Below, piece after piece: positions 1 to 64,000 of a DNA stretch of 64,000 bases; position 1 is the first letter of the stretch; each line of letters starts with the position of its first letter. This DNA is from Carcharhinus amblyrhynchos (Eukaryota). A program made the position numbers and the translations under genes. The notes below the pieces were generated by a model, which had not been told where the DNA came from, made no database searches, and saw only the letters and a program-made list of their open reading frames with translations. The stretch spans positions 44,392,001 to 44,456,000 of the forward strand of contig OZ336889.1 of the NCBI GenBank assembly GCA_965287045.1, given 5' to 3'.

Positions 1-231
1 TAGGCGGCTTTAATGTTAGGAAAAGGTGTGATACGGTAACACAGAGAAAGATTCCCAAGTGTGAGTTAGTCTGAAACAGTGAGACAGAAAAGAGACGCAG
101 CGACTGAACGATGAAATAATTTATTTGAATGTATAGGTCGGGAATTTGCTGTGGGCAGGAGAAAGTACAAGGATTTGCTCTCTGATTGGCTGAATAAGAC
201 AATATAGATTCCTGAGGATCATTTATCACAT

Positions 232-410
232 CACGGAAACCCTACAGCACAGAAAGAGGCCATTCCGCCTATCGAGTCTGCACCAACCGCAATCCCACCC
301 AGACCCTACCCCTATATCCCTACATATTTTACCCACTGGTCTCTCTAACCTACCCATCCCAGGACACAAAGAGGCTATTTTAAGCATGGCCAATGGAACT
401 AACCGCATTG
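232..410 (-). mobile_element. 3' part of a shark HE1-like SINE
   Basis: Reverse strand reads ggttggtgcagactcgataggcggaatggcctctttctgtgctgtaggg, a CR1-type 3' tail; paralogues at ~17857, ~35330, ~52183. Family name from recognition, not a search. Confidence 0.65.
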
Positions 411-411
411 G

Positions 412-985
412 GTTTAAAAATGGGTAAGTCACGTTGCGGCTTTATAGAACCTTAGTTCGGCCACACTTGAAATATCGTGTTCAATTCTGGTCGCCACACT
501 ACCAGAAGGACATGGAGGATTTGGAGAGGGTACAATAAAATTCCCAAGATGTTGCCTGGTATGGAGGGCATGAGCTTTGAGGAGAGCTTGGAGAACCTTG
601 GTTTGTTCTCACTGGATAGACGGAGGTTGAGGGATGACCTGATAGAAGAGTACGAGGGGCATGGACTGCGGGGACCATCAGATGCCTTTTCCCAGGGTGG
701 AAGAGTCAATTACTAGAAGACACATGTTTAACATTCAACGGGCAAGGTTTAACGGAGATGTACGAGGCAGAATTTTCACACAGAGGGTGATGGGTGCTTG
801 GAACTCGTTGTTCCGGGAGGTAGGGGAAGCAGATACGATAGTAACTTTTACGAAGCGTCTTGTCAAACACATGCATAGAACGGGATTAGAGGGATAATGT
901 CCCTGGAGGGTAGAGAGCTTTAGATAAGTCGAGTAGCGTGGTCGGTGCAGGCTTGGAGGGCCGAAGGACTATTCCTATGAGGCAA
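412..985 (+). mobile_element. CR1-clade LINE 3' end (ORF2 C-terminus plus tail), decayed
   Basis: LYRTLVRPHL..VQFWSPHY.KD, LGLFSL.RRRLR.DL, FTQRV..AWNSL split by frameshifts. Confidence 0.85.
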
Positions 986-1619
986 TTTTCTTTGTTTTTT
1001 GCTCCAATAATACAATCCAGAAAAAAATAGGGAATACACTTTTCATCGAGGGAAGTTATTTCGGAGTGAAATGAAGAAACACTGCTTCGCATGCATCATA
1101 GTTGACTCAGATGTTTTTCTCATATATCCCCTCATTTCGGTCATAACTCATTTTATTCATTAGACCCATGTTGACCATGTTTCCACTAAATTACTGACCA
1201 TCGAACTTTGCTTTTTTCCCCCCACTTTCGTTGATGTCACGAACTGTATCTCTCCTCAGATACTGTTCTTACTTTCACACCGATTACAATCAAACTTCTC
1301 CTTGAAAGCAGCCTTGTTCCTCTTCCCTTGTAAGCTGCTACCGATGTTCAGTTAACATTTCCTCTCTAAACTACTTGAAGATATTACCAACCCCAAATCC
1401 ATAATATTGTTCCAACAATTCCAGCATTGAATCCCCACAATCGCGTTTCTGCTTCTGCCACAATACTGATATGTCCCTTATCAAAGTTACATTGTATTCA
1501 ACTGTATCGATAGCGAACTGTTACTGTTGTTCTCAGTTTTAAAGGTTTTTTTGCAGTTTCTTTATTATTGTCACAAGTAAACTTACAGCTATCGGTTGTA
1601 ATACAAACTGCAATTACTG

Positions 1620-1855
1620 CAATGAAGGTACTGTGAACATTTCCGAGTCGCCACACCCCGGCACCTGTACGGGTGCAATGAGAGAGAATTTAGCATCGCC
1701 AAAGCACCTAATCAGCCCATCTTTCGGACTGTGGGAGGCAAGGAGCACCCACACAGATATGGGAAGAATGTACAGTCTGTGACCCAAGCCGGGCATCGAA
1801 ACCGGGTTCTTGGCGCTGTGAGGCAGAAGTTCTAACAACCTGACGCCCTACTGCT
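1620..1855 (-). mobile_element. tRNA-derived (V-SINE/HE1-like) SINE
   Basis: Reverse strand ...gcctcacagcgccaagaacccggtttcgatgcccggc has a Pol III B-box-like head; paralogues at ~19250, ~36722, ~53580. Confidence 0.75.
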
Positions 1856-2769
1856 TGTTCTTTTTGCATTGGCGTCGGTCTTTGACACGATTCCACACAC
1901 GATCCAACAATTCTCCATCTTTAATCAGTTGCTTGGACCTCTGCTCATGATCTGGTTCCATTATTATTTATCAGATAATATCCACAGATTGTCTACAATA
2001 GCTTCTCTTCCTGCTCCCATGCCAGCAACTCAACAATATGTCCCTGGCCCCATTCTTTTTCCCATCCACATGCTCCCCCTTGTCGGCGTCATCTGAAAGC
2101 ACATCAGACTTTTTATGCACTCTGAAAGCACGTAGCTCTATCTCACCATCGCCTCACTGAACATTTCTATTGTGATGATCAGAAACCTCCTCCAACTATT
2201 GGGAAGAATAAATTCGTTGCGCGGCGAGGGCACCTTTGAGCCTATTGAGCCTCTTAAGTGACCTATTATGAATCAGTCAAGTGCTTCACCCTGTCCGCAC
2301 TGCAATTATTGAAAGAGATATCCAAGTAATCGCGCTCCAGAGCTCGATTAGCATTTCATGCAGGCATCGGTTTCATTAATCTATCCGATCTTCATCCTGA
2401 AGTTATAATTGGATCGGTTTCCTGTGCTCTTCCAGTGAAATTCAGATCAACAAAACTCATTGCATATATTTTCATCCGGCACCTTTGGAGACGCAATTTT
2501 CACTCTGTTTCTGTCTCCACATGTGCTTCCAGGCCAGCTGATTTGTTTCCCGAATATTCTGGGGGGCTTTAGTTACTTCTTGCCTTTGGCAATTTGACAC
2601 AGTGCTTACCATTGCGAATTCTCCCTTAGTGTACCCAAACAGATGCCGGAGTATAGCGAGTTGGGGATTTGACAATAATTTTATTGCGGTGTTAATGTAC
2701 GCCTACTCGTGCCACTAACACATCAATTTCAAACTGTAAAGTTAAATGATAAAAAAAACTTCAAAGAGA

Positions 2770-3562
2770 GGGCGACAGTTCGATAGAAATTGAGTCTGGG
2801 GAATCTGTGGCGAACAAAAAGATTGCAGATGAAGAGAACAGGCATTTTGCTTTAGTCTTCATTATAGAGGATACAAGTTGTCCCATAGAACTAGCTGTAG
2901 AGCAGGAAATTAGAATGACATTAAGAACGTTGTTGAAGATGTCGGTTGCTAAGTCCTCAGATCCTGATGGCTTTCACCGAAGGTCTTTAAAGAAGTGACA
3001 AATGAGACGATTGATAGGCTGGTTGTAATGTTCCAAAATTCCCCAGATTCTGGGAAGTGTTCGTTAGATTGGGAAAAGCGACGGTAGCACCTTAATGCAA
3101 TAGGAAAGAACGACCTATAGCAGGAAACAACATATGTTAGCTGAACAACACCAGTTAGCTGAACATATGACAGACAAGGAAAATGTTAGGAGCGGTTATT
3201 AAGATTTGATAGCAGGGCACATAAGTAAAACACAATAATCAGATAGGGCCAACACAGTCTTGTCAAAGGGAAGTCATGTTCAATCAATTTACTGGAGTGA
3301 TTTGAAGAAGTGAGGTGCTGTGGATAAAGGGGAGCGGGTGGATGTACTGTGTTTTCCAGTAAGGATTTGATAAGATGTCACAGCAAAGACTGTTGCGGAA
3401 AATGAGAGTTTATCGTGTGGGAGCATGGACAGAAAATTTGCGAGCGAATAGGAAGCATAGAGTAGGGAAAAGGGACAATTTTGTGATTCGCACGATGTCT
3501 GGAGTGATGTGCTACACTGATCAGTGCTGTGGCCTCAACTCTTTACAATATATATAAATAAT
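2770..3562 (+). mobile_element. CR1-clade reverse-transcriptase fragment, decayed
   Basis: KSSDPDGFH..FKEV..EI, FQNSPDSG, KG.SC.INLLE and FDK remnants. Confidence 0.75.
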
Positions 3563-3889
3563 GGTATGTTTTCAGTATGGTACCAGGTATGTTCTTGCTT
3601 TCTACTACGTTTTACATACGCTCTGATATTCGCCTCTTCTTCCCCCAAATTCCTTCACTCCTGGCCTCTAATTCTCATCCGTAAATACCTCCGTAAATGA
3701 AAACAAATCTTGCGCCACTACCGCTTTGGCCTTACTTCACTGTTGTTTTTGGAACGAGTTCAGGTGAACGGCCTTTTCTGTAACACGTTAACCAATCTGG
3801 TCAGGAAGTTCATCATCAATAACACTGCTAACAGCGTGTCACCAATATGGCTGGTCATGTATTGTGCATATGTTTCCTAATAGCACAAA

Positions 3890-4170
3890 TGTTTTTGATT
3901 TGATTTGATTTGATTTCTCACTGTTTTATATAATAGTATACAGTGACAAGTATTCTTTCTTACACGTTTTACCGAGAAAGCATACCGTTCATAGAGAAGG
4001 AAAGGAGAGAGTGCTGAATGTAGTGTAACAGTCACATCTAGGGTGTGGAGAAACATCAACTTAATGCGAGTTAGGTCCATTCAAAAGTCCGAGGGCAGCA
4101 GGGAAGAAGGTGTTCTTAACTTGGTTGGTACGTGTCCTCAGACTTTATCTTTTTCGCGATGGAGTCACAT
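3890..4170 (-). mobile_element. Rex1/Babar-like LINE 3' end with (TCAAA)n tail
   Basis: The paralogue at 22507-22746 reads RYRSLRTRTNQVKNSFFPAALRLLN; (gattt)n tail. Confidence 0.6.
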
Positions 4171-5404
4171 ATGTACTGAGTAAGGATGCCAGATTTCCTG
4201 CCGGGAATGATGTTAATGAAGCGAATGTTTTTTTTCAGCAATTCAGTAGTTTCATGGTTAACATGATAATAACTGATTTTGTTCAAGATTTATTGCCAGA
4301 TACCACGATGGGATTTAGTATCATTGCTTGTTCCAGGACTCTGCAACACTAATCCGGCAATTAGTCGCCAGTCTTTGGCGTCCGGTACGCTTTACAATGT
4401 TAGTTCCTGCTCCCTTGTTTGAGGCTACGCCTGCATCTGTCTTCGAAGCGTTTGAAATGCATCATAAACGTACGGATCGGATTTAAGCTTAATTTACTAG
4501 AGACTGAACACTGTTTCGCCGAACACAACAGTGCGAATAACCCTTCTACAGAAATTGTGTTTCTCTCTTCCCAAGTACTACCAGATCTCCCGAATTTATC
4601 TTCAATTTTATGTTATAATTGTCATTTTATTCTTCCTGCTTTCTATTGGACTTTGCACAATTGAAGAAAGAAGTCTAAAAGGAATCCCAACGAACCTTAT
4701 GCAGAAATTGTGTTTCTCTCTTCAAAAGTGCTATCAGATCTCCCGAATTTATCCTAACTTTTGTGTTATAATTGTCATTTCATTCTCCCTGCTTTCTATT
4801 GGACTATGCACAATAGATGAAAGAAGTCGAAACCGAATTCGAATGAACCTGTGCGCGTTTTGCGGCTGAACCGGCAGATGGCAATATTGCAGTTGATATC
4901 CCAAGGACCGTGTTATTACATGAAGTGTAGATGGGGCAAGAAATATCTCAAAATGTCAATTCCTGGCAAAATATGTGGACACTTGGAAAATAGGGATTCG
5001 GACATGAAAGTCGTTTGCAGAATATTCTCATTGGGTGTTGTCAATTAATTTGGATGTTTCATGAGTTCCCCTTTTTAATGGTGAATGTCCATAATATCAG
5101 AAAATCCGAATGATTAGAAGCAGTAAGAACCCAGTGCCACTAAATGTGTTACTATCACTTCCTTTCCTGCGTCATTCACTAAAGATAATGCTGCCAGCGC
5201 CACATTAATGGTCCGAACGTTCAGAAATTTGATAGGATAAAAATAGACAAAAAGGCGCGAACACGTTTCATACCATCACATGAACTGAAACGAAGATCAG
5301 GCCGAAGGTCGTGGCTGATGAGATCGTGGGGTCCACCCCACATTCGGTCCAGCCCTGTGCTCTTTGGGTCCCTTTTCAATCAGAAATCTATCGAATTCAG
5401 CATT

Positions 5405-7030
5405 TTTTAATGGGATATGGGCATCGCTGGCAAGACCAGCATTTATTCCTCACCGCTAATGGCCCTCAAGATGATGGTGGTGAATTGCTTTGTTGAATCA
5501 GCGCAGTCCCTGTGGTCCAAGTAAGCGATATATCCCCAGGTCAGATTGCGAATGACTTGGAGGAGAGAGCTAAGGTGGTGGTGCTCCCATGTGTCTGCTC
5601 CCCTTGTACTTCTCGACGGTAGAGGTGTGATTTTGTAAGATGTTGCCTTTGGATATTGGATGGGTTTTTGCAGTGCATCCTGCAGATGGTACCCACTGCT
5701 GCCACTGTTCATCGTGGCGGAGGCAGTTTGTGGAAGAGGTGCCAGTCAAGTTTTCTCCTGGATGGTGTGAGCTTCTTGAAAGTTATAGAAGTTGCACTCT
5801 CCTGGCTAGTGCAAATATTCCATCACACTCCTGACTTGTGCCTCGCAGATGGTGCACAGGCTTGGGAGTAAGGAAGTGAGACACTTGCCACAGGATTCAT
5901 GCCCTCTGACCTGCTCTTGTAGCCACCATATTTAAATGTCAAGACCAGTTCAGTTTCTGGTCAATGGTCGGCCTTAGGAAGTCGACAGTGACGGCATTAC
6001 CGTTGAATGTCAAGAGACAATGATTAGTTGTTGGAGGTGGTCATTTCCTGGCACTACTTTGTCACGAAGGATACTTGCCACTTGCCAACCCAAGCTTGGA
6101 TATTGCCCTGGACGAACTGCATTTGGACATGGACGGCTTCAGTCTCTGAGGATGCGGGAATGGTATTGCACAGCATGTGAACGTTACTGATCGAGCAGCT
6201 GAAGATAGTTGGGCCGAGGATACCATCTTGAGAAACTCCAAGGATACCATCTTGAGAAGTATGCAAATTAGAGGATGGAACTCCAACCACAGCAAGACTC
6301 TTCCTCTGTGCCAGGTATGACACCAGCCAGCGTAGAAATTTCCCTCTGATTCCAATTGCCTCCATTATTCCTCGAGCTCCTTAATTCCACCCGTGCTGAC
6401 TTGACGTCAAAGGCAGTCACTTCACATCTGACATTCAATTACTCTTGTCCATGTTTGACTCAAGGCTGTAATGAAGTCAGGCGCCGAGTGTCCAGCGGAA
6501 TCCAAACTGTGTGTCAGTGAGTAGGTTCCTGCTCAGTTCCTGCAGTTTGATTGCGCTGTTCATCACCCCTTCCATCAACTTGCTGATGATCTGGAGTGGC
6601 CTGATGGCTGATGAATAAGGTTGGAGATGCCCTTCTTTTTGCATAGAGGACATAACTGGGCAATTTTCTGCAACGACGGGTCGATGCCAGTGTTGTAGAT
6701 GTACTGAAACAACTTGACTGGCGGGGCCGCATGGTCTGGAGCACAATCTTCAGGATTGTCGACAGAATATTGTTAGGCCCCAAAGCCTTTGCAATTTCCA
6801 AAGCGTTCGGACATTTCTCGTATCACGTGGAGAGAATTGAATTGGCTGAAGCTTGAAATCCGCGATGTTGCCCATTTCTTTAGAAGGCCAAGATGGATCA
6901 TTCACTTCGCACATGTGACAAAAGATTGTTGCGAAGGCTTTAGCTTTATCTTTTTCACTGATCATTGAGGATGGGCACACTTGTGATGTCTTCTCCTCCA
7001 GTGAGTTGTTTAATTATCCATTACCATTCA
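5405..7030 (-). mobile_element. L2/CR1-group LINE ORF2 relic
   Basis: KAKAFATIF, KALGPNNI..LKT, IISKLMEGV.N, TQFGFR, GVSQDGILGPTIFSC (GVPQGSVLGP-like). Confidence 0.8.
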
Positions 7031-7039
7031 CGATGGGAT

Positions 7040-8770
7040 ATTCCTGGTAAAGAGGGTTCCACAGGCTGATGTCTCCCACGGAAAATGAAATTCTCTTTAT
7101 CTCCATCTCAATTGGAAAACCTCCTGTTTTAATTCATGTCCCCTCCTTCTAGTCTCCTTGGAGGGGAGGCACTTCTTCAGCATTCACTATCTCAACTCCC
7201 CTCACGATAGTAGATGTTTCAGCAGGATTACCTCGAATTCTTCGAAACTCTAATGGGTACAAGACCTAACTCTCCAACCGTTCCCTACATGATATCCCTT
7301 TCACCTGACAGGGACCCGTTTCTCCGAATGTTGCTGGTGCTATTGTATTCATTCTGAGGCACCCGGGCCAACAGGAAAGTACTTGAGATGTGCTCGCGAC
7401 AAAGCACGACAAATTTGTAGCGAATCTTCCCTACTTTTATATTCCATCACACTTGCAATAGGTGACAGCATTGCATTTGCTTTCCTCATCACTTACAGCT
7501 TCATGCTCAAGTTTTGTGAATCACGTTCCGGGGCACCCAGATCCCCCAGTGCTGCAGATCTTTGCACTCTCATCTCCGTGTGAATAATTTGCTGCTTTCC
7601 ATTCTTCCTGCCAAAATGGACCAATTCGCTTTTCGCCACATTGCACTCCACCTGTTTCTTTTTACCACTCACGTAGCCTATCTAAATCCTTCTGGATACC
7701 ATTTATCCAAACCTCACAATTTACTTTCCCTCCTGTATTAAAGTCGTGAGAAAAAGTTGCAATCAATCCTTCCCATCATGCATGTCATTTCCATAAATTG
7801 ATAACAGCTGAGGCCCCAGATGTAATCCTGTGATACACTGCCGGCTACAGTTCCGCCCCCCCCCCACCACCCCCAACAAAAAATGGCTCAGTCACCCCAC
7901 CTCTCTGTTTCTATAAGGCAACCAGTCCTCGATTCGTGATGAATATTATCCCATTCATGATGACCACCCATTTGGCATTTCATAATGTATCTTTGAAACT
8001 GTTTCTTATTAAATACCTTTTGGAAATCCAAGTCTACAGGTTCCGCTTTATTCACGTTACCAATAAGTTGCTCCAGTAAGTATAAGAAATTATTAAAGTA
8101 TGGCTTCATTCATTTAAAACCATGTTGGCTCTACATAACTGCAAGTGCCATGTCATAACCTTCTAATAATAGATTTCGCATTTAACTTTTGACAGATGTT
8201 GGGCTAATTGGCTTGTAATTACATGTTTTCAGTTTCTTTCTTCTCTTGAATACAGGAGATAGATATGCTATTTCCCCATCTCGTGGAGTAATAAACTAAC
8301 AACAATGCAGACGGAGACCAATCGGCCCTTCGCGTCTCTATCCACTCTCCCGATGGGTATCTTACCCAGCTCTATCATGTCCTAATGACTTGACAGCCTT
8401 TAGTTCTGACCGCTTTCTCAGTAGCATTCACCTGGTGGTTGTAATTGCTTTATGTTCCTCGTTCCCTTCTCCCTCTACACCTATAAGTATTTCTGGGACA
8501 TTATTTGTATATTCTACAGCAAGGCAGAGAAAATATGTCAATCCTTCTGCCATTTCCTCATTTCGTATAATGATGTTTCGACGTTCCTTTTCCAGAATAA
8601 CAACACTTATTTTAGTGAGCATTTTCCTTTTTAAAGCATGTAGACATTCTTACATTCATTTAATATGTCCAGCTAACATTCTCTCATACTCTAAGTTCTA
8701 CTTTGTCATTACTTTATTTGTCAATCTTTGTCGATTTTTATATTCTTCCCAATCTTTAGCTCTGCCACTA
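7040..8770 (-). mobile_element. CR1-clade LINE fragments, decayed
   Basis: GISYRERL, NEEMAE.L..F, YKPISLTSV and DFQKVFNK remnants in this or paralogous copies. Confidence 0.7.
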
Positions 8771-9379
8771 ATCGCAAAGTTTTCCTCTTTTTCTCCCACT
8801 CGGGTGCAATCATTGGAGATGTTGGGACTTTAACATCTCCATGAAGTAGGCCCGCTTTCTGTCTGTTATTTCAGCTGCATACCGTCTTCAGTCAACTTTA
8901 ACCTGTATTCCTGGCCCTCTGCCAATCATTTTCCGATTCGACTCACACGCCATGACGGTGGTTCTTCTCTCGCTGCTCCTGTCTTGTTGCATTAAACTGA
9001 ACTGGTGTCTGTCTGTCTCCCTCTCTCAACACTGCAGATGTCAACTCTGTGCATTCCACCCACAGGCAAGGCCTTAAGCCTCTCACTCCCTGGGTACTGA
9101 CTGCACTGCATGACGTGGACCTGAGACATATCCTTTCAGTGAATACCCTGCGATCTCTTTCAGCCTAACAACTTTACCTGTTCCTGATTCCTCTACCTGA
9201 CCACCGCATGGAAATTTTCCCACTGATGGTAAAATTTTAATATTCCTTCCCCACCCTTCATTCTGTCCACACGGGGGTCAGTAAAATTCCAACAACCGAG
9301 TCCAAATGCCAGCAAATATGTGAACCCTTTTATCTTTGTTCGACCCCAGCTAGAGTATTAGTCCAATTCTTGACAATGT

Positions 9380-9845
9380 TCTTCCAAAGTATTTCAGAGC
9401 TTTGGAGAGTGTGCAGGATGGTGTATTAGCATGTTTCCAGGATAAAAGTCCTCAGTTAGATGTAAGGACGAGAAACGTGGAGTTGTTCTCCTTAGAGCCG
9501 CACAGTAGATTTGATAAAGGTGTTCTTAAAGGTGTTGGATAAAGAAAGTAGGAGCTGCTTCAAATGTCGGGAAGTTTGATCACCAGAAGGGAAACATTTG
9601 AAATAACCTTTGAACAGCAACAGGAACAGAAGAGGGCTGGTGGTGGGTAAATATGTTCCGACTCTTAATGATCTGGAGACAACTGGATCAAGGGCTATTG
9701 GAAGAGGATTTAACAATCCCTGTCAAAAAGGTGGAAAATATGTGGAAGGCTGGAGTAAGATCAAGACAGAAATTCCAGTTCTATCGCTCCTTTACAGAAC
9801 CGACATGGATGCGATGGGCTGACTGCCCTCTTTCTGCGATCAACC
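9380..9845 (+). mobile_element. Highly decayed CR1 3' end
   Basis: ALESV..., ELFSLE and a tail-like gatgggctgactgccctctttctg; paralogues at ~27040, ~44285, ~62050. Confidence 0.55.
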
Positions 9846-10456
9846 TTCTCGAATTCTTTATACTGACACAGCTGCATCTGCACCGCGATCGGCAGCTCTC
9901 CAGGCGAAGTCATTAATTCATTTCTTCTCGTTCTCCTCTGTGCGCCTCAGCTGCATAACCAAAATGTTACTTCTCCCAATTGTTCAAGGACACATGGGGT
10001 GAAGGTGTGTGACAAGCTAACGTTATCAACATTTAAAGGGCTTGCTTGATTTTGTTTAATTTTTCAAATGAGGGAGCAATAGAACATTGTGCGATGGCTT
10101 CTGCAATACTGTCGTCCGGCGGGAGGAGAGGGTGGTGTTGAGGGGAGGGTAACCGGTCATCAGAAATCTGATTTTAAAAACTGCTATTTTCAGCTCATTC
10201 CGACGTCGGTAAATGCATTGACATTCTCAAACTCATTGTTTCCTATGACAGCAAATGTACCCCTCAAATCAAACAACGAAAGTCATGCGAAAGCTGTTTC
10301 CTACAGCATTTCACTTTGCCGAGGCTTAACTCACTGTGTATGCCCTGGGTTTCCAACACTTGAATAAAGCTGAGTGGGCAGTCCTGGCACTTAATCACAT
10401 TCTAGATTGGTAATAAAATGTTTCTCCTGGATTGTCTGTCATTCAAACACTTCAGA

Positions 10457-10893
10457 TAGCTATCCATCTATCTGTCTATCTATCTACCTGACTACCTCTG
10501 TCTATCTATCTGTCTGACTGTCTTTCTAGCTATCCATCTGTCTGTCTTTCTGTTTATCCATCCATCCATCCATTTTTCTATCTCTCTATCTATCTTTCCA
10601 TGTACCTATCTTTCTACCTACCTATCTATCTGACTATCTATCTCTATCCATCTCTCTTCCTGTCTGTCTATCTATCTATCTATCTATCTATCTATCCATC
10701 CATCTATCGATCTATCTGTCTATCTATCTATCTATTTCTCTGTCTATCTGTCTGTCTATCAGTCGATCGATCTTTTTATCTCTTTCTCTATCTATCTTTC
10801 GATCCATCTATCTTTCTATCTATCTATCTGTCTGTCTATCTATCTATCTATTTCTCTGTCTATCTGTCTGTACATCTACCTATTTATCCATCA
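10457..10893. repeat. Degenerate (TATC/TGTC)n microsatellite
   Basis: Read directly. Confidence 0.95.
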
Positions 10894-11253
10894 ATCGCGA
10901 AAAGCCAGTACGGAGTATGGCCTTACGCCTCACTGTGTGCACATGAAATCTCAACTCACACTTTTCGTCTCTAATTTATTCACCAAGGACGTTACGCCTA
11001 TTGAGCAGCTTACGGTCCCCAACATTTATTTATTGTAATCTGCAAGCTTCCAGAGATCAAGCCACGATTAATTTAATCTGTTTTATGTTTCACCGCACCG
11101 TTTGTTTTTTTTTGTTGGGGGAGGGGTGGGTATTGAGCCATTTTACATGCTATTCTGTGCCTTGGGAGATTTATATTTCTTATTTCCAAAATGGCTGACG
11201 TGCTCATTCTGCAAATATCAGACAATACCGAAATGGAGAGCTTTGGCCTAATA

Positions 11254-11320: not shown

Positions 11321-11396
11321 GGGGAGGTTGGAATGGACTCAGAAGCGCGTTCGTGTCAGGATTTATTTTCTTTCTTCCTCTCCCCAAACCTTCACC

Positions 11397-50862: not shown

Positions 50863-50915
50863 TCCATGCATCGAAAGCGTTTTTGTATTTTGCCGTTAGT
50901 AAAGTTTTATTTCTG

Positions 50916-52369: not shown

Positions 52370-52945
52370 CTTAAAAATGGGCAAGTCCCCTTGCGGCTTT
52401 ATAGAAGCTTAGTTCGGCCAAACTTGAGGTATAGTGTTCAATGCTGGTCGTCACACTACCAGAAGGACATGGAGGCTTTGGAGAGGGTACAAAAAAATTC
52501 CCAGGATGTTGCCTGGTATGGAGGGCATCAGCAATGAGAAGGGCTTGGAGAAACTTGGATTGTTCCCACTGGAAAGACGGAGGTCGAGGGGTGACCTGAT
52601 AGAAGAGTGTGAGAGACATGGACAGCGCGGATAACCAGATGCCTTTTCCAGGGTGGAAGAGTCAATTACTAGAGGACACATGTTTAAGATTCGACGGGCA
52701 AAGTTTAGAGGAGATGTTGGAGGCAGAATTTTCACACAGAGGGTGATGGGTGCCTGGAACTCGCCGTTCCGGGAGGTAGTGGAAGCAGATACGATAGTGA
52801 CTTTTAAGGAGCGTCTTGTCAAACACATGGATACAACGGGATTAGAAGGATATGGTCCCTGGAGGGTAGGGGGTATTAGTAAAGTCGAGTAGCATGGTCG
52901 GTGCAGGCTTGGACGGCCGAAGGACTGTTCCTACGCTGCAATTTC
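52370..52945 (+). mobile_element. CR1 3' end, unit 4
   Basis: Paralogue of 412-985. Confidence 0.8.
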
Positions 52946-55551
52946 CTTGTTCTTTGCTCCAATAATATAATCCAGAAAAAAATAGAGCATACACTTTTCT
53001 TAGAGTCAAGCTATTTTGGAGTGAAATGAAGAAACACTGCTTCGCGCGCATCATAGTTGACTCGGATGTTTTTCTCATATATCCCCTCATTTCGGTCACA
53101 ACTCATTTTCTCCATTAGACCCATGTTGACCATGTTTCCACTAAATTACTGACCATCGAACTTTGTTTTTTTTGCCCCCACTTTGGTTGATGTCACTACC
53201 TGCTATCTCTCCTCAGATACTGTTCTTACTTTCACACCGATTACAATCAAACTTCTCCTTGAAACCAGCCTTGTTCCTCTTTCCTTGTAAGCTACTACCG
53301 ATGTTCAGATAACATTTCCTCTCTAAGCTACTTGAAGATATTACCAACCCCAAATCCATAATATTGTTCCAACAATTCCAGCATTGAATCCCCACAATCG
53401 CATTTCTGCTTCTGCCACAGTACTGATATGTCCCTTATCAAAGTTACATTCTATTCAACTGTAACGACAGCAAACTATTACAGTTTTTTTTTCAGTTTTT
53501 AAGTTTTTTTTGGCAGATTCCTTATCATTGTCAGACGTAGACTTACAGCTATCGGTTGTAATCCAAACTGCAATTACTGCAATGAAGTTATTGTGAAAGT
53601 TTCCTAGTCGCCACACACCGGCACCTGTACGGGTACAATGAGAGAGAATTTAGCATCGCCAAAGCACCTAATCAGCCCATCTTTCGGACTGTGGGAGGCA
53701 ACGGAGCACCCACACAGATATGGGAAGAACGTGCAGACTGTGACCCAAGCCGGGCATCGAAACCGGGTTCTTGGCGCTGTGAGGCAGAAGTTCTAACCGC
53801 CGTGACGCCCTACTGCTTGTTCTTTTTGCATGGGCGTCGGTCTTTGACACGATTCCACACACGATCCAACAAGTCTCCATCGTTCGTCAGTTGCTTGGAC
53901 ATATTCACATGACCTGGTTCTTTAATTATTTATCAGAGAATATCCACAGATTTGTCTGCAATGTCTTCTTTTCCTTCTTCCATGCCAGCAAATCAACGAT
54001 ATGTCCCTGGCTCCATTCTTTTTCCCATCCACATGTTCCCCTTGTCGGCATCATCTCAAAGCACATCAGACTTTTTATGCACTCTGAAAGCACGAAGCTC
54101 TATCTCACCATCGTGTCACAAAGAATTCTACTGTGATGATCAGAAATCTCCTCCAACTATTGGGAAGAACAAATTCGTTGTGCGGCGAGGGCCTCTTTGA
54201 GCCTATTGAGGCCTTTAAGTGACCTATTAAGAATCAGTCAAGTGCATCATCCTGTCCGCACTACAATTATTCGCCTGGTTGGGACCGGACTATGTCAAGA
54301 CAATAATCTAACAGGCGGAGCTCAGTGTTGGTGCCCGGCAAGGGGAACCCCACCAATTCACTCTGTGGGATTTGGAAATCGGCTGCACCAAAGCCCCAAG
54401 AACCTCTGTTATTTGGCCTACATCAGGTCTCATCTTTCGAGACCAGTTGTAATCCGAACTGTCGCCACCGCTCTAACCTACAGAATTGCTGCACCTACGG
54501 TTGGCCGTCAGTCCCCTGAGGTGGTTACTCCTCCGCAGAAGGGTGTGCATGTCTTGCTTATGGCTGATTTCTGCCCCCACCATATATCCAGTGACCGCGG
54601 AGCGCACAGAATGAGCGGGGAAGTGAGTTGGCGGAGCAGACAAACCGACTCTCCCAGAGACCCTGCCCTTGCAACTGGAGGCTCCAGAGAATGTTTGCCT
54701 TGGCTGTAAAGTCCAGATTAGACTCAGTATCAGTGGACAATCGTTTAGGATAGAACAAAGAGAAGTGACGATGGCCAGTTAATCCAAGGCATTCTCTCGC
54801 AATAATCTTTCAATTGTTCTTCGCTTCACATGTAATTTCTATTAATATTTAGAAGAGACTTCCGAATCTTTTCGTCATCATTTAAACTTTTGCATTCCTG
54901 ATCATAAAAAACTGGCTTTGTAACTTTGTGTCCCCAGCTAAAGAAAAACATGTGAACATAGAAAGGATAAACACCTGGTTCCCTCCAAAGGGAAAAACAA
55001 TTGATAAATGACTTAGGAACTTTATATTGAGCTCAGTGCCCAAACATTTCACTGAAGAATACAACACAAAAATACCATTGACCCAGTGTGCTCTTTGAAA
55101 GATCTATCCAAGTAATCGCACTCCAGTGCTCGATTAGCATTTCATGCAAACACCGGTGTCATTAATCTATCCGGTCTTCATCCTGAAGTTATAATTGGAT
55201 CGATTTCCTATGTTCTTCCAGTGAAATTCAGGTCAACAAAGCTCATTGAATATATTTTCATCTGGCACCTTTGGAGGCTCAATTTTCACCCTGTTTCTGT
55301 CTCCACAGATGCTTCCAGACCAGCTGATTTGTTTCCCAAATACTCTGGGGGGTTTTAGTTACTTCTTGCCTTTGGCACTGTGGCACAGTGCTGAACATTG
55401 CTAATTCTCCCTCAGTGTACCCAAACAGGTGCCGGAGTATAACGACTGGGGGATTTCACGATAACTTTATTGCGCTGTTAATGTACGCCTACTCATGACA
55501 CTAATGCACCAATTTGAAATTGTAAAGTTAAACCATAAAAAAACGTACAAA

Positions 55552-56372
55552 GAGTGGGCGACAGTCCGATAGAAATTGAGTCTGGGGAATTTGTCGCAAA
55601 TAAAATGATTGCAGATGAAGAGGACAGGCATTTTGCTTTAGTCTTCATTGTAGAGGATACAAATTGCACCGTAGAAATAGTTGTAGAGCAGGAAATGGAA
55701 GAGAAGGACTCAAGAAAATTATAATGTCATCAAGGACGTTTTTGAAGATGTCGGTTGCTAAGTCCTCAGATCCTGATAGCTTTCACCGAAGGTCTTAAAA
55801 GGAGTGACAAGTGAGACAATTGATAAGTTGGTTTTAATGTTCCAAAATTCCCCAGATTCTGCGGAATTCGTTTGATTGGGAAAAGCGACCGTAATACCTT
55901 AATGCAATAGGAAAAAACGACCTATAACGGTAAATAACACATGTTAGCTGAACAACACCAGTTAGCTGGACATGTGATATATCAGGAAAACGTTAGCAGC
56001 GGTTATTAAGGTTTGATAGCAGGGCACAGGAGTAAACTCACGGTAAGCAGATAGAGCCAATACAGTTTTGTCAAAGGGAAGTCATGTTCAATCAATTTAC
56101 TGGAGTGATTTGAAGAAGTAACAAGCTATGGATAAAGGGGAGCAGGTGGATGTACTGTGTTTTCCAGTAAGCATTTGTTAAGATGTCACAACAAAGACTA
56201 TTGCGGAAAATAAGAGTTTATCGCGTGGGAGCATGGACAGAAAATTTGCGAGCGAATAGGAAACAGAGAGTAGGCAAAAAAGACAATCTTGTGATTCGCA
56301 AGGTGTAAGGGATGGTGTGCTACAGTGATCCGTGCTGTGGCCTCAACTCTTTATAATTTATATAAATAATGG
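55552..56372 (+). mobile_element. CR1 RT fragment, unit 4
   Basis: Paralogue of 2770-3562. Confidence 0.7.
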
Positions 56373-58051
56373 TATGTTTTCAATATGGTACCAGGTATGT
56401 TCTTGCTTTCTGCTACGTTTTACATACGCTCTGATATTCGCCTCTTCTTCCCCCAAATTCCTTCACTCCTGGCCTCTAATTCTCATCTGTAAATATCTCC
56501 GTAAGTGAAAACAAAACTTCTGCCACTGTCGCTTTGGCCTTACTTCACTGTTGTTTTTGGAACCATTCCAGGTGAACGGGCTTTTCTGTAACACGTAAAC
56601 CAATCTGGTCAGGAGGTTCATCATCAATACCACTGCTAACAGCGTGTCACCAATATGGCTGGTCATGTATTGTGCACATGTTTCCCTAATAGCACAAATG
56701 TTTTTGATTTGATTTATTACTATTTTATGTAATACTATACAGCGACAAGTATTCTTTCTTACATGCTTTACCGACAAAGCATACCGTTCATAGAGAAGGA
56801 AAGGAGACAGTGCAGAATGTAGTGCAACAGTCACCGCGAGGGTGTGGAGAAATATCAACTTAATGCGAGTTAGGTCCATTCAAAAGTCTGAGGGCAGCAG
56901 GGAAGAAGCCGTTCTTAACTTGGTTGGTACGTGTCCTCAGACTTCTGTATTTGTACCCGATGGAAAACATGGAGTCACAAATGTATTCAGTAAGGATGGC
57001 AGATTTCCTGCCGGGAATGATGTTAATGAAGCGAATGTTTTTTTTCAGCAATTCAGTAGTTTCATGGTTAACATTAGTATAACTGGTTTTGTTCAAGATT
57101 TATTGCCAGATACCATGATGGGATTTAGAATCATTGCTTGTTCCCGGACTCTGCAATACTAATCCGGCAATTAGTCGCCGGTCTTTGGCGTCCGGCATGC
57201 TTTACAGTGTTGGTTCCTGCTCCCTTGTTTGTGCCTACGCGTGCACCTGTCTTCGAAACGTTTGAAATGCATCATAAAAGTAGGGATCGGATTTACGCTT
57301 AATTTACTAGAGACTGAACACCGAACACAGCAGTGCGGATAACCCTTTGCAGAAATTGTGTTTCTCACTTCAAAAGTGCTGCCAGATCTCCCGAATTTAT
57401 CCTGAATTTTATGTTATAATTGTCATTTCATTCTCCATGCTTGCTATTGGACTATGCACAAGAGATGAAAGAAACCTAAAACGAATTCGAATGAACCTGG
57501 GCGCGTTTTGCGGCTGAACCAGCAGGTGGCAATACTGCAGTTGATATGCCAAGCACAGTATTATTACATGAAGTGGATATGCGGCGAAAAATATCTGAAA
57601 ATATCAATTCCTGGCAAAATACGTGGACACTTGGAAAATAGGGATTCGGACATGAAAGTCGTTTTCAGAATATTCCCATTAGGTATTGTCAATTAATTTG
57701 GATGTTTAATGTGTTCCCATTTTTCATGGTGAATATCCACAATATCAGAAAATCCGAATGATGAGAAGCAGTAAGAATCTAGTGTCACTAAATGTTATAC
57801 TATCACTTCCTTTCCTGCGTCATTCACTAAAGATAATGCTGCCAGCGCCACATTAATGGATCCGAAGTTTCAGAAATTTGATAGGATAAAAATAGACAAA
57901 AAGGGCGCAAATACGAATCATACTATCATATGAATTGGAATGAAGATCATGTCTAAGATCGTGGCTGATGAGATCGTGGGCTCCACCCGACATTCGGTCC
58001 ACCCCTATGCTCTTTGGGTCCCTTTTCAATCAGAAATCTATCGAATTCTGC

Positions 58052-61000
58052 ATTTTTAATGGGATGTGGGCATCGCTGGTGAGACCAGCATTTATTCCTC
58101 ACCGCTAATTACCCTTGAAAAGATGGTGATGAACTGCTTTGTTGAATCAGCGCCGTCCCTGTGGTCTAAGTAAACAATATATCCCCAGGTCAATTTGCGA
58201 ATGACTTGGAGGAGAGTGCTAAGGTGGTGGTGTTCCCACGTGTCTGCTGCCCTTGTCCTTCTGGACGGGAGTGGTGAGATTTTGTAAGGTATGGCCCATG
58301 GACATTGAATGGGTTTTTGCAATGCATCGTGAAGATGGTACTCACTGCTGCCACTGTTCATCGTGAAGGGGGCAGTTTGTGGAAGAGGTGCCAGTCAAGT
58401 TTTGTCCTGGATGATGTGAGCTTCTTGAAAGTTATAGAAGCTGCACTCTCCTGGCGAGTGCAAATATTCCATCACAATACTGACTTGTGCCTCGCAGATG
58501 GTGGACAGGCTTGGGAGTCAGGAAGTGAGACACTTGCAACAGGATTCATGTCCTCTGACCTGCTCTTGGAGCCACCATATTTAAATCTCAAGACAAGTTC
58601 AGTTTCTGGTCAATGGTCGGCCTTAGGAAGTCGACAGTGGCGGCATTACCGTTGAATGTCAAAGGACAATGATTAGTTGTTGATTGGTCATTTCCTGGCA
58701 CTACTTTGTCCCGAAGGATACTTGCCACTTGCCAACCCAAGCTTGGATATTGTCCTGGACTTCCTGCATTTGGACATGGACGGCTGCATTCTCTGAGGGT
58801 GCAGGAATGGTACTGTACACTATGCGATCATCCTCATTGCTGACATTATGATGCAAGGAACGTTATTGATAGAGCAGCTGAAGATAGTTGGGCCTAGGAT
58901 AGCATCTTGGGAAACTCTTGCAGAGAAGTATGCAAATTAGAGGATTGAACTCCAACCACAGCAAGACTCTTCCCCTGTGCCAGGTATGACCCCAGCCAGC
59001 GTAGAAATTTCCCTCTGAATCTAATTGACTCCATTATTCCTCGAGCTCCTTAATTCCACCCGTGCTGCCTTGACGTCAAAGACAGTCACTTCACATCTGA
59101 CATTCAATTACACTTGTCCATGTTTGACTCAAAGTTGTACTGAAGTCAGGCGCTGAGTGACTAACGGAATCCAAACTATGTGTCAGTGAGTAGGTTCCTG
59201 CTAAATTCCTGCCGTTTGATTGCGCTGTTAATGACCCCTTCCATCAACTTGCTGATGATCTGGAGTGGCCTGATGGTTGATGAATAAGGTTAGAAATGCC
59301 CTTCTTTTTGCATAGAGGACATAACTGGGCAATTTTCTGCAATGACGGGTAGATGCCAGTGTAGTAGACGCCCTGAAACAACTTGACAGGCGGGGCGGCA
59401 TGGTCTGGAGCTCAAGTCTTCAGAACTGTGGACAGAATATTTTTAGGGCCCAAAGCCTTTGCAGTGTCCAACAGCGTTCGGGCATTTCTTGGTATCACGT
59501 GGAGCGCATTGTATTGGCTGAAGCTTGAAATCCGCGATGTTGACCATTTCTTTAGAAGGCCAAGATGGATCATCCACTCGGCAGATGTGACAGGAGATTG
59601 TTGCGAAGGCTTTAGCCTTATCTTTTTCACTGATCATTGAGGATAGGCACATCTGTGATGTCTTCTCTTCCAGTGAGTTGTTTAATTATCCACTACCATT
59701 CACGATGGGGTATTCCTGGTAAACAGAGTTCCACAGACTAATGTCTTTTACGGAAAGTGAAATTCTCTTAATCCCCATCTCAACTGGAAAACCTCCTATT
59801 TTAATTCATGTCCCCTCCTTCTAGTCTACTTGGAGGGGAGGCACTTCCTCAGCATTCGCCGTCTCAACTTCCCTCGGGATAGTAGGTGTTTCAGCAGGAT
59901 CACATTGAATTCTCCTAAACTCTAATGGGTACAAGACACAACTCTCCAACCGTTCCCAATATGATATCCCTTTCATCTGAAGGGGGCACCTTTCTCCGAA
60001 TGTTGCTGGTGCTATTGTATCCGTTCTGAGGTACCCGGGCTAACAGGAAAGTACTTTAGATGTGCTCGCGACAAAGCACGACAAATTTGTAGCGAATCTT
60101 CCCTACTTTTATATTCCATCCCACATGCAATAGGTGACAACATTGCATTTGCTTTCCTCATCACTTACAGCTTCATGCTAAAGTTTTGTGAATCACGTTC
60201 CGGAGCACCCAGATCCCCCAGTGCTGCAGACCTTTGCACTCTCATGTCCGTATGAATAATTTGCAGCTTTCCATTCTTCCTGCCAAAGTGGACCAATTCG
60301 CATTTCACCACATTATACTCCACCTGTTTCTTTTTACCACTCACGTAGCCTACCTAAATCCTTTTGGATACCATTAATGCTAACCCCACAATTTACTTTT
60401 CCTCCTGTATTAAAGTCGTGAGAAAAAGTTGCAAACAATTCGTCCCATCATTCATGTCATTTCTATAAATTGATAACAGTTTAGGCCCCAGATGTAATCC
60501 TGTGATACACCGCCGGCTACAGTTTGCCCCTCCCCCCAACAAACAAATGGCTCAGTTACCCCACCTGTCTGTTTCTGTGAGGCAACCAGTCCTCGATTCG
60601 TGATGAACATTATCCCATACATGATGACCTCCTATTTGGCATTTCATAATGTATCTTTGAAACTGTTTCTTATTAAATACGTTTTGGAAATCCAAGTCTA
60701 CAGGTTCCTCTTTATTCACGTTACTGATAAGTTGCTCCAGTAACTATATGAAATTAGCACCGTATGGCTTCATTTATACAAAACCATGTTGGCTCTACAT
60801 AATTGCAAGTGCCATGCCATAACCTTCTCATAGTAGATTTGAGCATTTGACTTTTGACAGATGTTAGGCTAATTGGCTTGTAGTTACATGTTTCAGTTTC
60901 TTTCCTTTCTTGAATAGAGGAGTTCGGTCTGCTATTTCCCGATCTCATAGAATTATAAAATCACTACAATGGAGAAGAACGCCAATCGGCCCTTCGCGTC

Positions 61001-61440
61001 TGCATTTACTCTCCCGAAGGGTATCTTACCCAGCTCTATCATGTCCTAGTGATTTGACAGCCTTTAGTTCTGACCGCTTTCTCAGTAGCATTGACCTGGT
61101 GGTTCTAATTGCTTTATGTTCCTCGCTCCCTTCTCCCTCTTCACCTGTAAGTATTTCTGGGACATTATTTACGTATTCTACAGCCGAGGAAGAGAAAATA
61201 TATCAATTCTTCTGCCATTTCCTCAGTTCGCATAATGGGTTTTCGACGTTCCTTTTCCAGAGTAAGCACACTTATTTTAGTGAGCATTTTCCTTTTTAAA
61301 AGCATGTAGAAATTCTTACATTCTTTTAATATGTCCAGCTAAAATTCTTGCATATTCTTAACTCTCTTTTCTTGTTATTTTCTTGGTCATTTTTCTTCGG
61401 TTTTTATATTCTTCCCAATCTTCAGCTCTGTCACGAGTGG
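58052..61440 (-). mobile_element. L2/CR1 relics, unit 4
   Basis: Paralogue of 5405-8770. Confidence 0.75.
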
Positions 61441-63129
61441 TAAAGTTTTAAACTTTTTCTCCCGCTCGGGCGCAATCATTGGAGATGTTGGGACTTTAAC
61501 ATCTCCATGAAGCAGGCCGGCTTTCTGTCTGATATTTCAGCTGCATACCGTCTTCAGTCAACTTTAACCTAAATTCCTGGCCCTATGCCAATCGTTCTCC
61601 GATTCGGCTCACACACCATGAGGGTGGTTCTTCTCTCGCTCCTGCCGACTCCTTGCGTTAAACTGAAGTCGTGTCTGTCTGTCCCCCTCTCTCCACTCTG
61701 CAGATGTCAAGTCTGTGCATTCCACCCACAGGCAAGGCCTTAAACCTCTCACTCCCTGGGTACTGACTGCACTGCATGATGTGAATCTGAGACATATCCT
61801 TTCAGTAAATACCCTGCGATCTCTTTCAGCCTAACAACTTTAATTACATGCTCCTGATCCCTCTACCTGACCGCCGTTTGGAAATTTTCCCACTGATGGT
61901 AAAAATTTAATATTCCTTCCCCACCCTTCATTCTGTCCACACGGGAGTCAGTAAAATTCCAACAACCGAGTCCAAATGCAAGCAAATATGTTAACCCTTT
62001 TATCTTTGTTAGACCCAACCTCGAGTATTAGTCCAATTCTTGACAATATTCTTCCAAAGTATTTCAGAGCTTTGGAGAGTGTGCAGGAAGGTGTATTAGC
62101 ATGTTTCCAGGATAAAAGTCCTCAGTTAGATGTAAGGACGAGAAACGTGGAGTTGTTCTCCTTAGAGCCGCACAGTAGATTTGATAAAGATGTTCTTAAA
62201 GGTGTTGGATAAAGAAAGTAGGAGCTGCTTCAAATGTCGGGAAGTTTGATCACCAGAAGGCAAACATTTGAAATAACCTGTGAACAGCAACAGGAACAGA
62301 AGAGGGCTGGTGGTGGGTAAATATGTTCCGACTCTTAATGAGCTGGAGACAATTGGATCAAGGGCTCGTGGAAGAGGATTTAACAATCCCTGTCAAAAAG
62401 GCGGAAAGAATGTTGAAAACTGAAGTAAGAGCAAGACAGAAATTCCAGTTCTATCGCTCCTTTACAGAACCGACATGGATGCGATGGGCTGATTGCCCTC
62501 TTTCTGCGATCAACCTTCTCGAATTCTTTATACTGACACAACTGCCTCTGCACCGCGATCGGCAGCTCTCCAGGCGAAGGAATTAATTCATTTCTTCTCG
62601 TTCTCCTCTGTGCGCCTCAGCTGCATAACCAAAATGTTACTTCTCCCAATTGTTCAAGGACACATGGGGTGAAGGTGTCTGACAAGCTGACGTTATCAAC
62701 ATTGAAAGGGCTTGCTTGATTTTGTTTAATTTTTCAAGTGAGGGAGCAATAGAACATTGTACGATGGCTTCTGCAATACTGCCGGGAGGCGGGAGGAGAG
62801 GGTGGTGTTGGGGGGGAGGGTAACCGGTCATCAGAAATCTGATTTTAAAAAACTGCTATTTTCAGCTCATTCCGACGTCGGCAAATGCTTTGAGATTCTC
62901 AAAGTATTGTTTCCTATGACAGAAAATATACCCCTCAAATCAAACAACGAAAGTCATGCGAAAGCTCTGTTCCCTCGAGCATTTCATTTTGCCAAGGCTT
63001 AACTCACTGTGTATGCCGTGGGTTTCCAACACTTGAATAAAGCTGAGTGGGCAGTCTTGGCACCTCAATCACATTCTAGATAGGTCATAAAATGTTTCTC
63101 CAGAATTGTCCATCATTCACTCACTTCAG

Positions 63130-63328
63130 ATAGCTATCTATCTATCTATCTGACTATCTATCTCTATCCATCTGTTTGCCTGTCTATCTATCTATCCATC
63201 TATCGGTCTGTCTGTTTATCCATCCATTCATCCATCTATCTATCTCGCTATTTATCTATCCATCTATCTATCTTTCTTTCTACCTATCTATCTGACTACC
63301 TATCTCTATCCATCTCTCTGCCTGTCTG

Positions 63329-63386
<58 letters not shown>

Positions 63387-63673
63387 GATCTATTTATNNN
63401 NNNNNNNNNNNNNNNNNNNNNNNNNNNNNNNNNNNNNNNNNNNNNNNNNNNNNNNNNNNNNNNNNNNNNNNNNNNNNNNNNNNNNNNNNNNNNNNNNNNN
63501 NNNNNNNNNNNNNNNNNNNNNNNNNNNNNNNNNNNNNNNNTCAATCGATCTATGTATCTATTTCTCTATCTATCTTTCTATCTATCTTTCTGTCTGTCTA
63601 TCTATCTATCTATTTCTCTATCTGTCTATCTATCTATCTATCTGTCTGTCTGTCTACCTATCTATCCATCAAT
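63130..63673. repeat. (TATC)n microsatellite spanning an assembly gap
   Basis: Read directly; the repeat continues on both sides of the Ns. Confidence 0.93.
63398..63540. other. Assembly gap (143 N)
   Basis: Run of n. Confidence 0.99.
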
Positions 63674-64000
63674 CGCGAAAAGCCAAGAAGGAGTATGGCC
63701 TTAGGCCTCTCTGTGCGCACATGACATCTCAACTCACACTTTTCGTCTCTAATTTATTCGCCAAGGACGTTACGTCTATTAAACAGCTTACTGTCCCCAA
63801 CATTTATTTATTGTAATCTGCAGGTTCCAGAGATCAAGACACGATTCATTTAATCTGTTTTATGTTTCACCGCACCGTTTGTTTTTTTGGGGTGGGTATT
63901 GAGGCATCTTACATGCTGTTCTGTAGATTGGGAGATTTATATTTCTTATTTTCCAAAATGGCTGACGTGTTCATTCTGCAAATATCAGACAATACCGAAA

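What the first reader, a model, noticed from the sequence alone, without database searches (positions are those of the whole stretch)
1..64000. Dense ~17 kb head-to-tail array of intact, pre-rearranged antibody light-chain genes
Seen: three complete L-VJ-C genes with ATGs 17418 and 17228 bp apart, plus flanks implying copies on both sides (at least 5 units). Established: cartilaginous-fish Ig genes form multiple clusters and lambda/type II genes are germline-joined, so the join itself is not new. Inference: this is a hard-wired, RAG-independent repertoire built by tandem amplification. All copies are open and have an octamer promoter, so one-chain-per-cell expression cannot come from rearrangement and would need a transcriptional gene-choice mechanism.
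Basis: partly seen in the sequence, partly recalled or inferred. Interest (0 to 1): 0.8.

Follow-up and report, generated by a model that had tools for sequence, protein, structure and literature searches.

The report
Tandem shark lambda light-chain genes
This is a run of ready-joined antibody lambda light-chain genes from a requiem-type shark, repeated head to tail about every 17 kb; the gene type and the puzzle of expressing one copy per cell are long known, and only the tight spacing and copy history are modest additions.

Summary
Three open L-VJ-C genes start at 11397, 28815 and 46043 (gaps 17418 and 17228 bp), each with an octamer and no recombination signal, and 99.8% of the window is direct repeat. 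The window spans 3.7 periods, so the firm minimum is four units, not five. The genes are cartilaginous-fish lambda (type II/NS3) chains, with C domains 93-98% identical to sandbar shark lambda. That isotype is germline-joined in all species studied. Copies are true paralogues: spacers differ by 6-9%, carry private indels and are mosaic; CDR3s are diversified and C exons nearly identical. Linked lambda genes appear in other shark and ray genomes too. 'Hard-wired, RAG-independent repertoire' overstates it: the join is attributed to germline RAG, hypermutation is expected, and heavy chains still rearrange. Olfactory-type gene choice was already proposed in 2004. I found no paper giving this 17-kb spacing, against 82 to >200 kb for shark heavy-chain clusters. 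Expression was untestable here. Verdict: new member of a known kind, modest interest.

The parts
11397..16538 (+). Lambda light-chain gene copy 1: leader 11397-11445, fused VJ 11586-11933, C 16216-16538; polyA signals 16592, 16733
   Evidence: 239-aa open spliced protein
28815..34009 (+). Lambda light-chain gene copy 2: leader 28815-28863, fused VJ 29003-29353 (CDR3 one codon longer), C 33687-34009; polyA signals 34063, 34204
   Evidence: 240-aa open spliced protein
46043..50862 (+). Lambda light-chain gene copy 3: leader 46043-46091, fused VJ 46232-46579, C 50540-50862; 373-bp deletion in the J-C intron after 46833; polyA signals 50916, 51057
   Evidence: 239-aa open spliced protein
11268..11275 (+). 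Promoter octamer ATTTGCAT of copy 1, preceded by a CACGTG E-box
28688..28695 (+). Promoter octamer of copy 2, preceded by a CACGTG E-box
45921..45928 (+). Promoter octamer of copy 3; the upstream E-box reads CAGGTG here
1..11396 (+). Spacer S0, homologous to the other spacers from about 1.09 kb past the C stop codon; the gene that may precede it is outside the window
16539..28814 (+). Spacer S1 (copy 1 to 2); change of phylogenetic signal near 22013; private 658-bp deletion after 26211
34010..46042 (+). Spacer S2 (copy 2 to 3); private deletions of 609 bp (after 37155) and 278 bp (after 42606)
50863..64000 (+). Spacer S3, complete up to the promoter-proximal region of a predicted fourth gene (ATG expected near 64164); holds the 143-N gap 63398-63540
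9354..9956 (.). About 600-bp non-coding block 1.2-2.0 kb upstream of each ATG (copies 27016-27618, 44256-44856, 62024-62626), more conserved than the rest of the spacer; candidate enhancer or conversion tract
   Evidence: 37 changes against 96 expected per 600 columns, permutation p<=0.002; 96-98% identity
10460..10896 (.). (ATCT)n microsatellite upstream of each promoter, length differing by copy (also 28127-28312, 45364-45540, 63134-63674)

Best explanation
This is part of the immunoglobulin lambda (type II/NS3) light-chain complex of a carcharhinid-like shark. Shown: three intact germline-joined L-VJ-C miniclusters in a direct tandem array of about 17.4 kb period. Inferred history: one ancestral joined gene, whose join is attributed in the literature to RAG acting in germ cells, was multiplied as a whole spacer-plus-gene unit by unequal crossing-over. 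Later crossing-over or gene conversion made the units mosaic. CDR3 diversified by amino-acid-changing substitutions and a one-codon indel, while the C exon stayed nearly fixed. Inferred function: each unit is transcribed from its own octamer promoter in B cells without V-J recombination and is then diversified by AID hypermutation. Near-single expression most likely arises from low-probability, stochastic activation of one or a few units, followed by feedback once a light chain pairs with the cell's rearranged heavy chain, with some leak at the RNA level. I put identity and duplication history at about 0.9 and the expression step at about 0.5.
For: Gene anatomy. Sandbar shark lambda chains are the top hits, 83-92% identical overall and 93-98% in C; the three copies nest with two of them at support 98/81. 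Spacers differ by 6.2-9.4% with private indels up to 827 bp, and the longest exact repeat is 294 bp. Of 253 informative spacer sites, the S1+S2 grouping holds 9 of 70 left of a breakpoint and 160 of 183 right of it; clustering permutation p about 1e-4. Changes number 22 in 93 CDR sites, 12 in 243 framework sites, 5 in 321 C sites and 252 in 3796 intron sites; CDR vs framework p=2e-6, C vs intron p=6e-5. 13 of 14 variable CDR codons change the residue. Serine AGY:TCN is 5:2, 7:3, 5:3 in CDRs against 2:8, 3:9, 2:9 in frameworks. Literature: all lambda genes are joined in the species studied and lambda is the main isotype in sandbar shark (PMC5192425); skate joined genes vary in CDRs with replacement excess and are expressed (PMC2192082 abstract); limiting-factor and pairing model (PMC2435157 Discussion).
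Against: There are no expression data; that all three copies are used is not shown. CDR1+2 alone are not significantly more variable than the intron (8 of 60, p=0.06), so the diversification signal is mostly CDR3, where I placed the gap and set the CDR limits myself. With three genes the tests have little power and the pairs are not independent. C-exon homogenisation beyond purifying selection is weak (at most 1 silent change against about 5 expected, p about 0.04). The pairing-feedback model was proposed for heavy chains and is extrapolated here. The mosaic pattern could partly come from chimeric assembly.
Confidence: 0.7

Rival explanations
1. Dedicated singular gene choice, as for olfactory receptors or clustered protocadherins: all units are silenced and one promoter is switched on and locked through a cis element, for example the conserved 600-bp upstream block or a distant enhancer.
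For: Promoters are near-identical and in one orientation. A conserved non-coding block sits upstream in 4 of 4 spacers. The idea was proposed by Eason 2004, as cited in PMC2435157 (the 2004 paper itself was not seen).
Against: No match to my two CTCF core patterns in the window (a crude scan). The block may be a conversion tract. Malecek 2008 thought a mechanistic link unlikely and found one to three heavy-chain rearrangements per cell. From memory only, Iacoangeli 2017 found lambda mRNA in kappa-positive nurse shark cells; the paper was not held and one search gave only a citing paper.
Confidence: 0.15
2. No exclusion at the level of transcription: several neighbouring copies are co-transcribed from one open domain, and one receptor dominates only through heavy-chain pairing preference, or cells tolerate more than one lambda chain.
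For: The tight spacing, each unit's own octamer and the lack of any rearrangement bottleneck make joint opening plausible. Pairing preference is invoked for sharks in PMC2435157.
Against: Clonal receptor expression is reported for nurse shark IgM. The V frameworks of the copies are very alike (6-10 differences in 213 nt), so pairing could discriminate them only weakly.
Confidence: 0.25
3. AID-driven somatic exchange among the direct repeats (conversion between VJ exons, or deletion or switch between units) contributes to diversity or to exclusion in B cells.
For: Units are 90-96% identical direct repeats 17 kb apart. Switch-like exchange between shark heavy-chain clusters more than 120 kb apart is reported (PMC4279169 passage). 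The germline units are themselves mosaic.
Against: Germline mosaicism says nothing about somatic events. Tandem mutations in shark V regions are described as non-templated (PMC4279169 passage). There are no pseudogene donors in the window.
Confidence: 0.1
4. Assembly artefact: alleles or distant paralogous clusters were stitched into a false tandem array.
For: A sized 143-N gap shows scaffolding. 140 exact repeats of 60 bp or more, up to 294 bp, could mislead a short-read assembler. The signal switches in mid-spacer.
Against: Four spacers, all 6-9% apart with private indels, cannot be two alleles. Bases 1-63397 have no gap. Three lambda genes with consecutive locus tags share one 202,435-bp scaffold in Scyliorhinus torazame.
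Confidence: 0.07

Closest known systems
Sandbar shark (Carcharhinus plumbeus) germline-joined lambda / type II light-chain clusters (e.g. AAC59643.1; Hohman et al. 1993, seen only as a reference title)
   Same: L-VJ-C layout with fused VJ; protein 83-92% identical, C domain 93-98%; copies nest among the sandbar sequences.
   Different: The window shows the physical linkage (direct repeats, about 17.4 kb period, mosaic spacers), which none of the passages I read gives.
Nurse shark NS3 (lambda), six joined loci (PMC5192425 passage)
   Same: Same isotype by the published synonymy (PMC5985310 Table 2); all joined.
   Different: No nurse shark NS3 sequence came up among the listed hits, so there was no direct comparison; a minor isotype there, spacing not given.
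Little skate type I (sigma-2) joined clusters, at least 89 (PMC2192082, abstract only)
   Same: All joined, expressed, CDR-focused replacement changes, possibly hypermutated; raised the same no-rearrangement paradox in 1995.
   Different: A different isotype.
Shark IgH miniclusters (PMC5192425 section 6.1; PMC2435157)
   Same: Self-contained cluster units; the exclusion problem among many loci.
   Different: They rearrange somatically and lie 82 to >200 kb apart, about five to twelve times wider than here.
Linked lambda genes in other elasmobranch assemblies
   Same: In 15 of 15 species with two or more listed entries on records of 30 Mb or more, all entries share one contig length (counted by eye among the 120 of 138 rows shown). 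Consecutive tags scyTo_0012496-8 and chiPu_0007090-1.
   Different: Coordinates and orientation were not available, so the spacing there is unknown (three genes within 202 kb at most in S. torazame). Those paralogues are more diverged than the window's copies.

Membership tests
Cartilaginous-fish Ig lambda (type II/NS3) light-chain cluster | One V-set VJ domain plus one C1-set domain, split leader, C-terminal cysteine | tested here: met
   3 of 3 copies
Cartilaginous-fish Ig lambda (type II/NS3) light-chain cluster | C and V sequences closest to author-named lambda chains | tested here: met
   C 93-98% to three named sandbar shark lambda chains; nested with two at 98/81. The tree had no kappa, sigma or sigma-2 outgroup.
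Cartilaginous-fish Ig lambda (type II/NS3) light-chain cluster | V and J fused in frame with no intervening RSS | tested here: met
   Single VJ exon; no RSS-like match near it
Cartilaginous-fish Ig lambda (type II/NS3) light-chain cluster | Cluster organisation: one V, one J, one C per unit, same orientation | tested here: met
Cartilaginous-fish Ig lambda (type II/NS3) light-chain cluster | The join is germline rather than somatic | tested here: inconclusive
   Strongly implied by three joined copies sharing flanks and a CDR3 core; source tissue unknown
Cartilaginous-fish Ig lambda (type II/NS3) light-chain cluster | Expression in B cells, hypermutation, pairing with IgM or IgW heavy chain | not testable with these tools
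   Only indirect: octamer, polyA signals, AGY/WRC bias
Rearranging light-chain clusters (kappa/NS4, sigma, split sigma-2) | Separate V and J flanked by 12/23 RSS | tested here: not met
Olfactory-receptor or protocadherin-type singular gene choice | One promoter and one allele active per cell | not testable with these tools
   Needs single-cell data
Olfactory-receptor or protocadherin-type singular gene choice | Shared enhancer, or CTCF site per promoter | tested here: inconclusive
   No match to two CTCF core patterns; one conserved upstream block per unit of unknown role; array ends not in the window

The most novel reading that the evidence does not exclude
The array works as a recombination-free antibody gene selector: one of many near-identical tandem lambda promoters is chosen and locked on per B cell through the conserved upstream block of each unit, while unequal crossing-over and selection on CDR3 keep rebuilding a germline repertoire. 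It would be a protocadherin-like choice locus inside the antibody system, readable copy by copy from the CDR3 tags.
Probability: 0.15. Interest if true: 0.7.

Novelty: new member of a known kind. Interest (0 to 1): 0.3.

Why it matters
How a shark B cell limits itself to one light chain when the genes are already joined has been asked since at least 1995 and 2004 and is unsettled in what I could read. A 2025 paper says the genomic distribution of these miniclusters is not well known (PMC12227049 Introduction). A resolved array with distinct CDR3s gives the tags needed for a single-cell test, and shows lambda units five to twelve times closer than heavy-chain clusters. But other public shark and ray assemblies already hold linked lambda genes, so this window offers one more usable case rather than a unique one.

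Tried and rejected
RSS scan of both strands: 5 weak matches, all in spacers. Extra V, J or C pieces: none by tblastn. Rfam: 0 matches. tRNA: 0. Other genes in spacers and introns: Pfam on 18 of the 94 listed ORFs gave one sub-threshold chance hit; 7 read-through frames gave none. I took several spacer stretches for decayed LINE reverse-transcriptase by eye (recalled motifs). A homologue search found 0 of 292 candidates, and the atlas gave only a lead (hypothetical clusters 0.96; an RVT_1 cluster at 0.92 with 19% of members), so this is unconfirmed. The 100-aa ORF in the conserved block was rejected as a gene: no atlas support (best 0.76) and 14 of 22 variable codons change the residue. The idea that germline copies carry hypermutation-type tandem changes was not supported firmly: CDR pairs show 12 of 19, 10 of 13 and 4 of 10 adjacent differences, but selection on codons gives the same and spacers also exceed chance. 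The pathway count of 'zero silent CDR changes' was corrected, since one CDR2 serine switch is silent. The PDB search returned generic antibody chains and no isotype information. Accession numbers and positions of homologues could not be looked up, so spacing in other species stays open. Literature: 9 searches and passages of 15 papers gave no statement of lambda cluster spacing. The key J Immunol, PNAS, Immunity and Eur J Immunol papers were not read (two look-ups failed). Table S1 of PMC12227049 lists only sigma-type light genes in the rows matched, the elephant shark supplement search showed nothing relevant in 2 of 3 places, and bioRxiv supplements, including the VGP locus table, were not seen and may bear on novelty.
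Full report
Observation. Self-comparison shows the window is one direct repeat: long diagonals of 88-96% identity at offsets near 17, 35 and 52 kb, with 99.8% of bases covered by a direct homologue more than 10 kb away and only the 143-N gap left out. Three genes lie on the + strand with ATGs at 11397, 28815 and 46043, which gives the stated 17418 and 17228 bp. Each has a split leader, one fused VJ exon, a 4.0-4.3-kb intron and a C exon, with in-phase GT/AG sites, an open 239-240-aa product, an octamer 122-129 bp upstream and two polyA signals. Pfam calls V-set and C1-set in 3 of 3. No RSS-like site lies near a VJ exon and there is no other V or C piece. The flanks are spacer homologues. The right one runs to about 164 bp before a predicted fourth ATG; the left one starts about 1.09 kb past where a preceding stop codon would be. 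The window holds 3.7 periods, so four whole units suffice; five is possible but not shown.

Identity. The VJ query returned 36 proteins of 1290 candidates, led by Carcharhinus plumbeus lambda chains. The C query returned 138 of 325, 120 listed, again led by these at 97-98%. In a 39-row tree the copies nest with two sandbar shark chains (98/81) next to Mustelus; no other isotype was included as outgroup. The source is thus a carcharhinid-like shark (inference) and the genes are lambda, type II/NS3. [quoted passage not shown]

How the array arose. The four spacers differ by 6.2-9.4% and carry private indels of 152-827 bp. J-C introns differ by 3.9-4.8% and C exons by 1-5 of 321 nt. The longest exact repeat is 294 bp. 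These are paralogues, not alleles. Informative sites switch grouping in mid-spacer: S1+S2 is supported by 9 of 70 sites left of about 22013 and 160 of 183 to the right (best breakpoint, uncorrected p 2e-29; adjacency permutation p about 1e-4). That fits repeated unequal crossing-over or conversion (inference), though a chimeric assembly could add to it. The three CDR3s share a core and identical J start, and differ by point changes and one codon, which fits a single ancestral join. Change is concentrated in CDRs: 22 in 93 sites against 12 in 243 framework and 252 in 3796 intron sites, with 13 of 14 variable CDR codons changing the residue. CDR1+2 alone are not significant (p=0.06), CDR limits are my own Kabat-like ones, and three genes give little power. 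CDR serines favour AGY codons and WRC/GYW density is 0.16-0.26 against 0.11-0.12 in frameworks, the usual set-up for hypermutation (established knowledge). The same pattern, CDR replacement excess in joined genes, was reported for skate in 1995 (PMC2192082, abstract).

Is the layout unusual? Published spacings are for heavy-chain clusters, 82 to >200 kb (PMC5192425 section 6.1); shark light-chain clusters were thought farther apart than teleost ones (PMC3014032 passage); and a 2025 paper says their distribution is not well known (PMC12227049 passages). Nine searches found no statement of lambda spacing, but most of the primary shark immunology papers are not in the library. Public annotations suggest linkage is common. 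In 15 of 15 species with two or more listed entries on chromosome-scale records, all entries share one contig length (counted by eye). Scyliorhinus torazame has three consecutive lambda locus tags on a 202,435-bp scaffold, plus one on another scaffold, and Chiloscyllium punctatum has two consecutive tags. I could not obtain coordinates. The VGP preprint surveys cartilaginous-fish light-chain loci without separating types (PMC13320880 passages; supplements not seen).

How it most likely works. Shown: each unit has what it needs to be transcribed and spliced without recombination. Inferred: diversity comes from the germline copies plus AID hypermutation, on top of a RAG-rearranged heavy chain. 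But the question is old. Malecek 2008 cites Eason 2004 for olfactory-like single activation, doubts a mechanistic link, and proposes limiting factors, rare activation and feedback from the first good H-L pair (PMC2435157, Discussion read whole). I adopt that, extended to lambda, at about 0.5; co-transcription with selection by pairing gets 0.25, strict singular choice 0.15 and somatic exchange among repeats 0.1. From memory, not from a call, a 2017 nurse shark study found lambda RNA in kappa-bearing cells, which would favour leaky transcription. The sequence offers one lead: a 600-bp block upstream of every promoter with 37 changes against 96 expected (p<=0.002). It may be an enhancer or a conversion tract; it is not a gene.

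What I saw of each paper. Abstract only: PMC2192082. Passages plus a named section: PMC2435157 (Discussion), PMC5192425 (6.1). Passages: PMC2193156, PMC4279169, PMC12227049 (plus matched rows of Table S1), PMC5985310, PMC3014032, PMC3308330, PMC13320880. Passages with nothing used: PMC10529500, PMC13433984, PMC5931798, PMC3964593 (plus one supplement search), PMC8692893. Reference titles only: Hohman 1993, Lee 2002, Eason 2004. Recalled only: Iacoangeli 2017.

Verdict. The feature is real and correctly described, apart from the unit count. It is a new member of a known kind: germline-joined shark lambda clusters. The tight 17-kb mosaic array is a useful detail that I did not find in print, but linked lambda genes are evident in other assemblies and the gene-choice hypothesis predates this finding. 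Interest 0.3; the singular-choice reading has probability about 0.15 and would merit 0.7.

Noticed in passing
window 9354-9956, 27016-27618, 44256-44856, 62024-62626: Non-coding block upstream of each promoter, 96-98% identical against 91-94% for the spacer overall; holds a 100-codon open frame in 4 of 4 copies that does not behave like a gene.
   Followed up: partly
window 12187-12559 and 29608-29980; deleted after 46833: A 373-bp J-C intron stretch with an octamer (12414, 29835) and single NF-kB-like and MEF2-like matches is present in copies 1 and 2 and missing in copy 3; a second intronic octamer (32723, 49577) is exact only in copies 2 and 3. Could make the copies unequal in activity.
   Followed up: no
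window about 11256, 28676, 45909: The E-box just 5' of the promoter octamer is CACGTG in copies 1 and 2 and CAGGTG in copy 3.
   Followed up: no
window 11586-11933: Copy 1 has framework substitutions not found in copies 2 and 3 (P to T in FR1, V to A and L to H in FR2) that might affect folding or heavy-chain pairing.
   Followed up: no
window about 11753 versus copies 2 and 3: A CDR2 serine is AGT in copy 1 and TCT in the others, a silent two-base change.
   Followed up: partly
window 4542-4850: A 153-bp tandem duplication private to spacer S0.
   Followed up: no
window about 23600-25350 (-), 31400-31900 (-), 17500-18800 (+) and homologous places: Stretches that look by eye like decayed LINE reverse-transcriptase sequence, shared by the units and so older than the amplification; Pfam and the homologue search did not confirm it, the atlas gave a weak RVT_1 lead.
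   Followed up: partly
window 63398-63540: The only gap, 143 N, sits inside the ATCT microsatellite upstream of the predicted fourth gene.
   Followed up: yes
homologous proteins P0009, P0021, P0022, P0033, P0038, P0118 and others: Lambda CDR3 length classes of 5, 9 and 11 residues recur across sharks and rays, suggesting old joined subfamilies; the window's copies belong to the 11-12 class.
   Followed up: no
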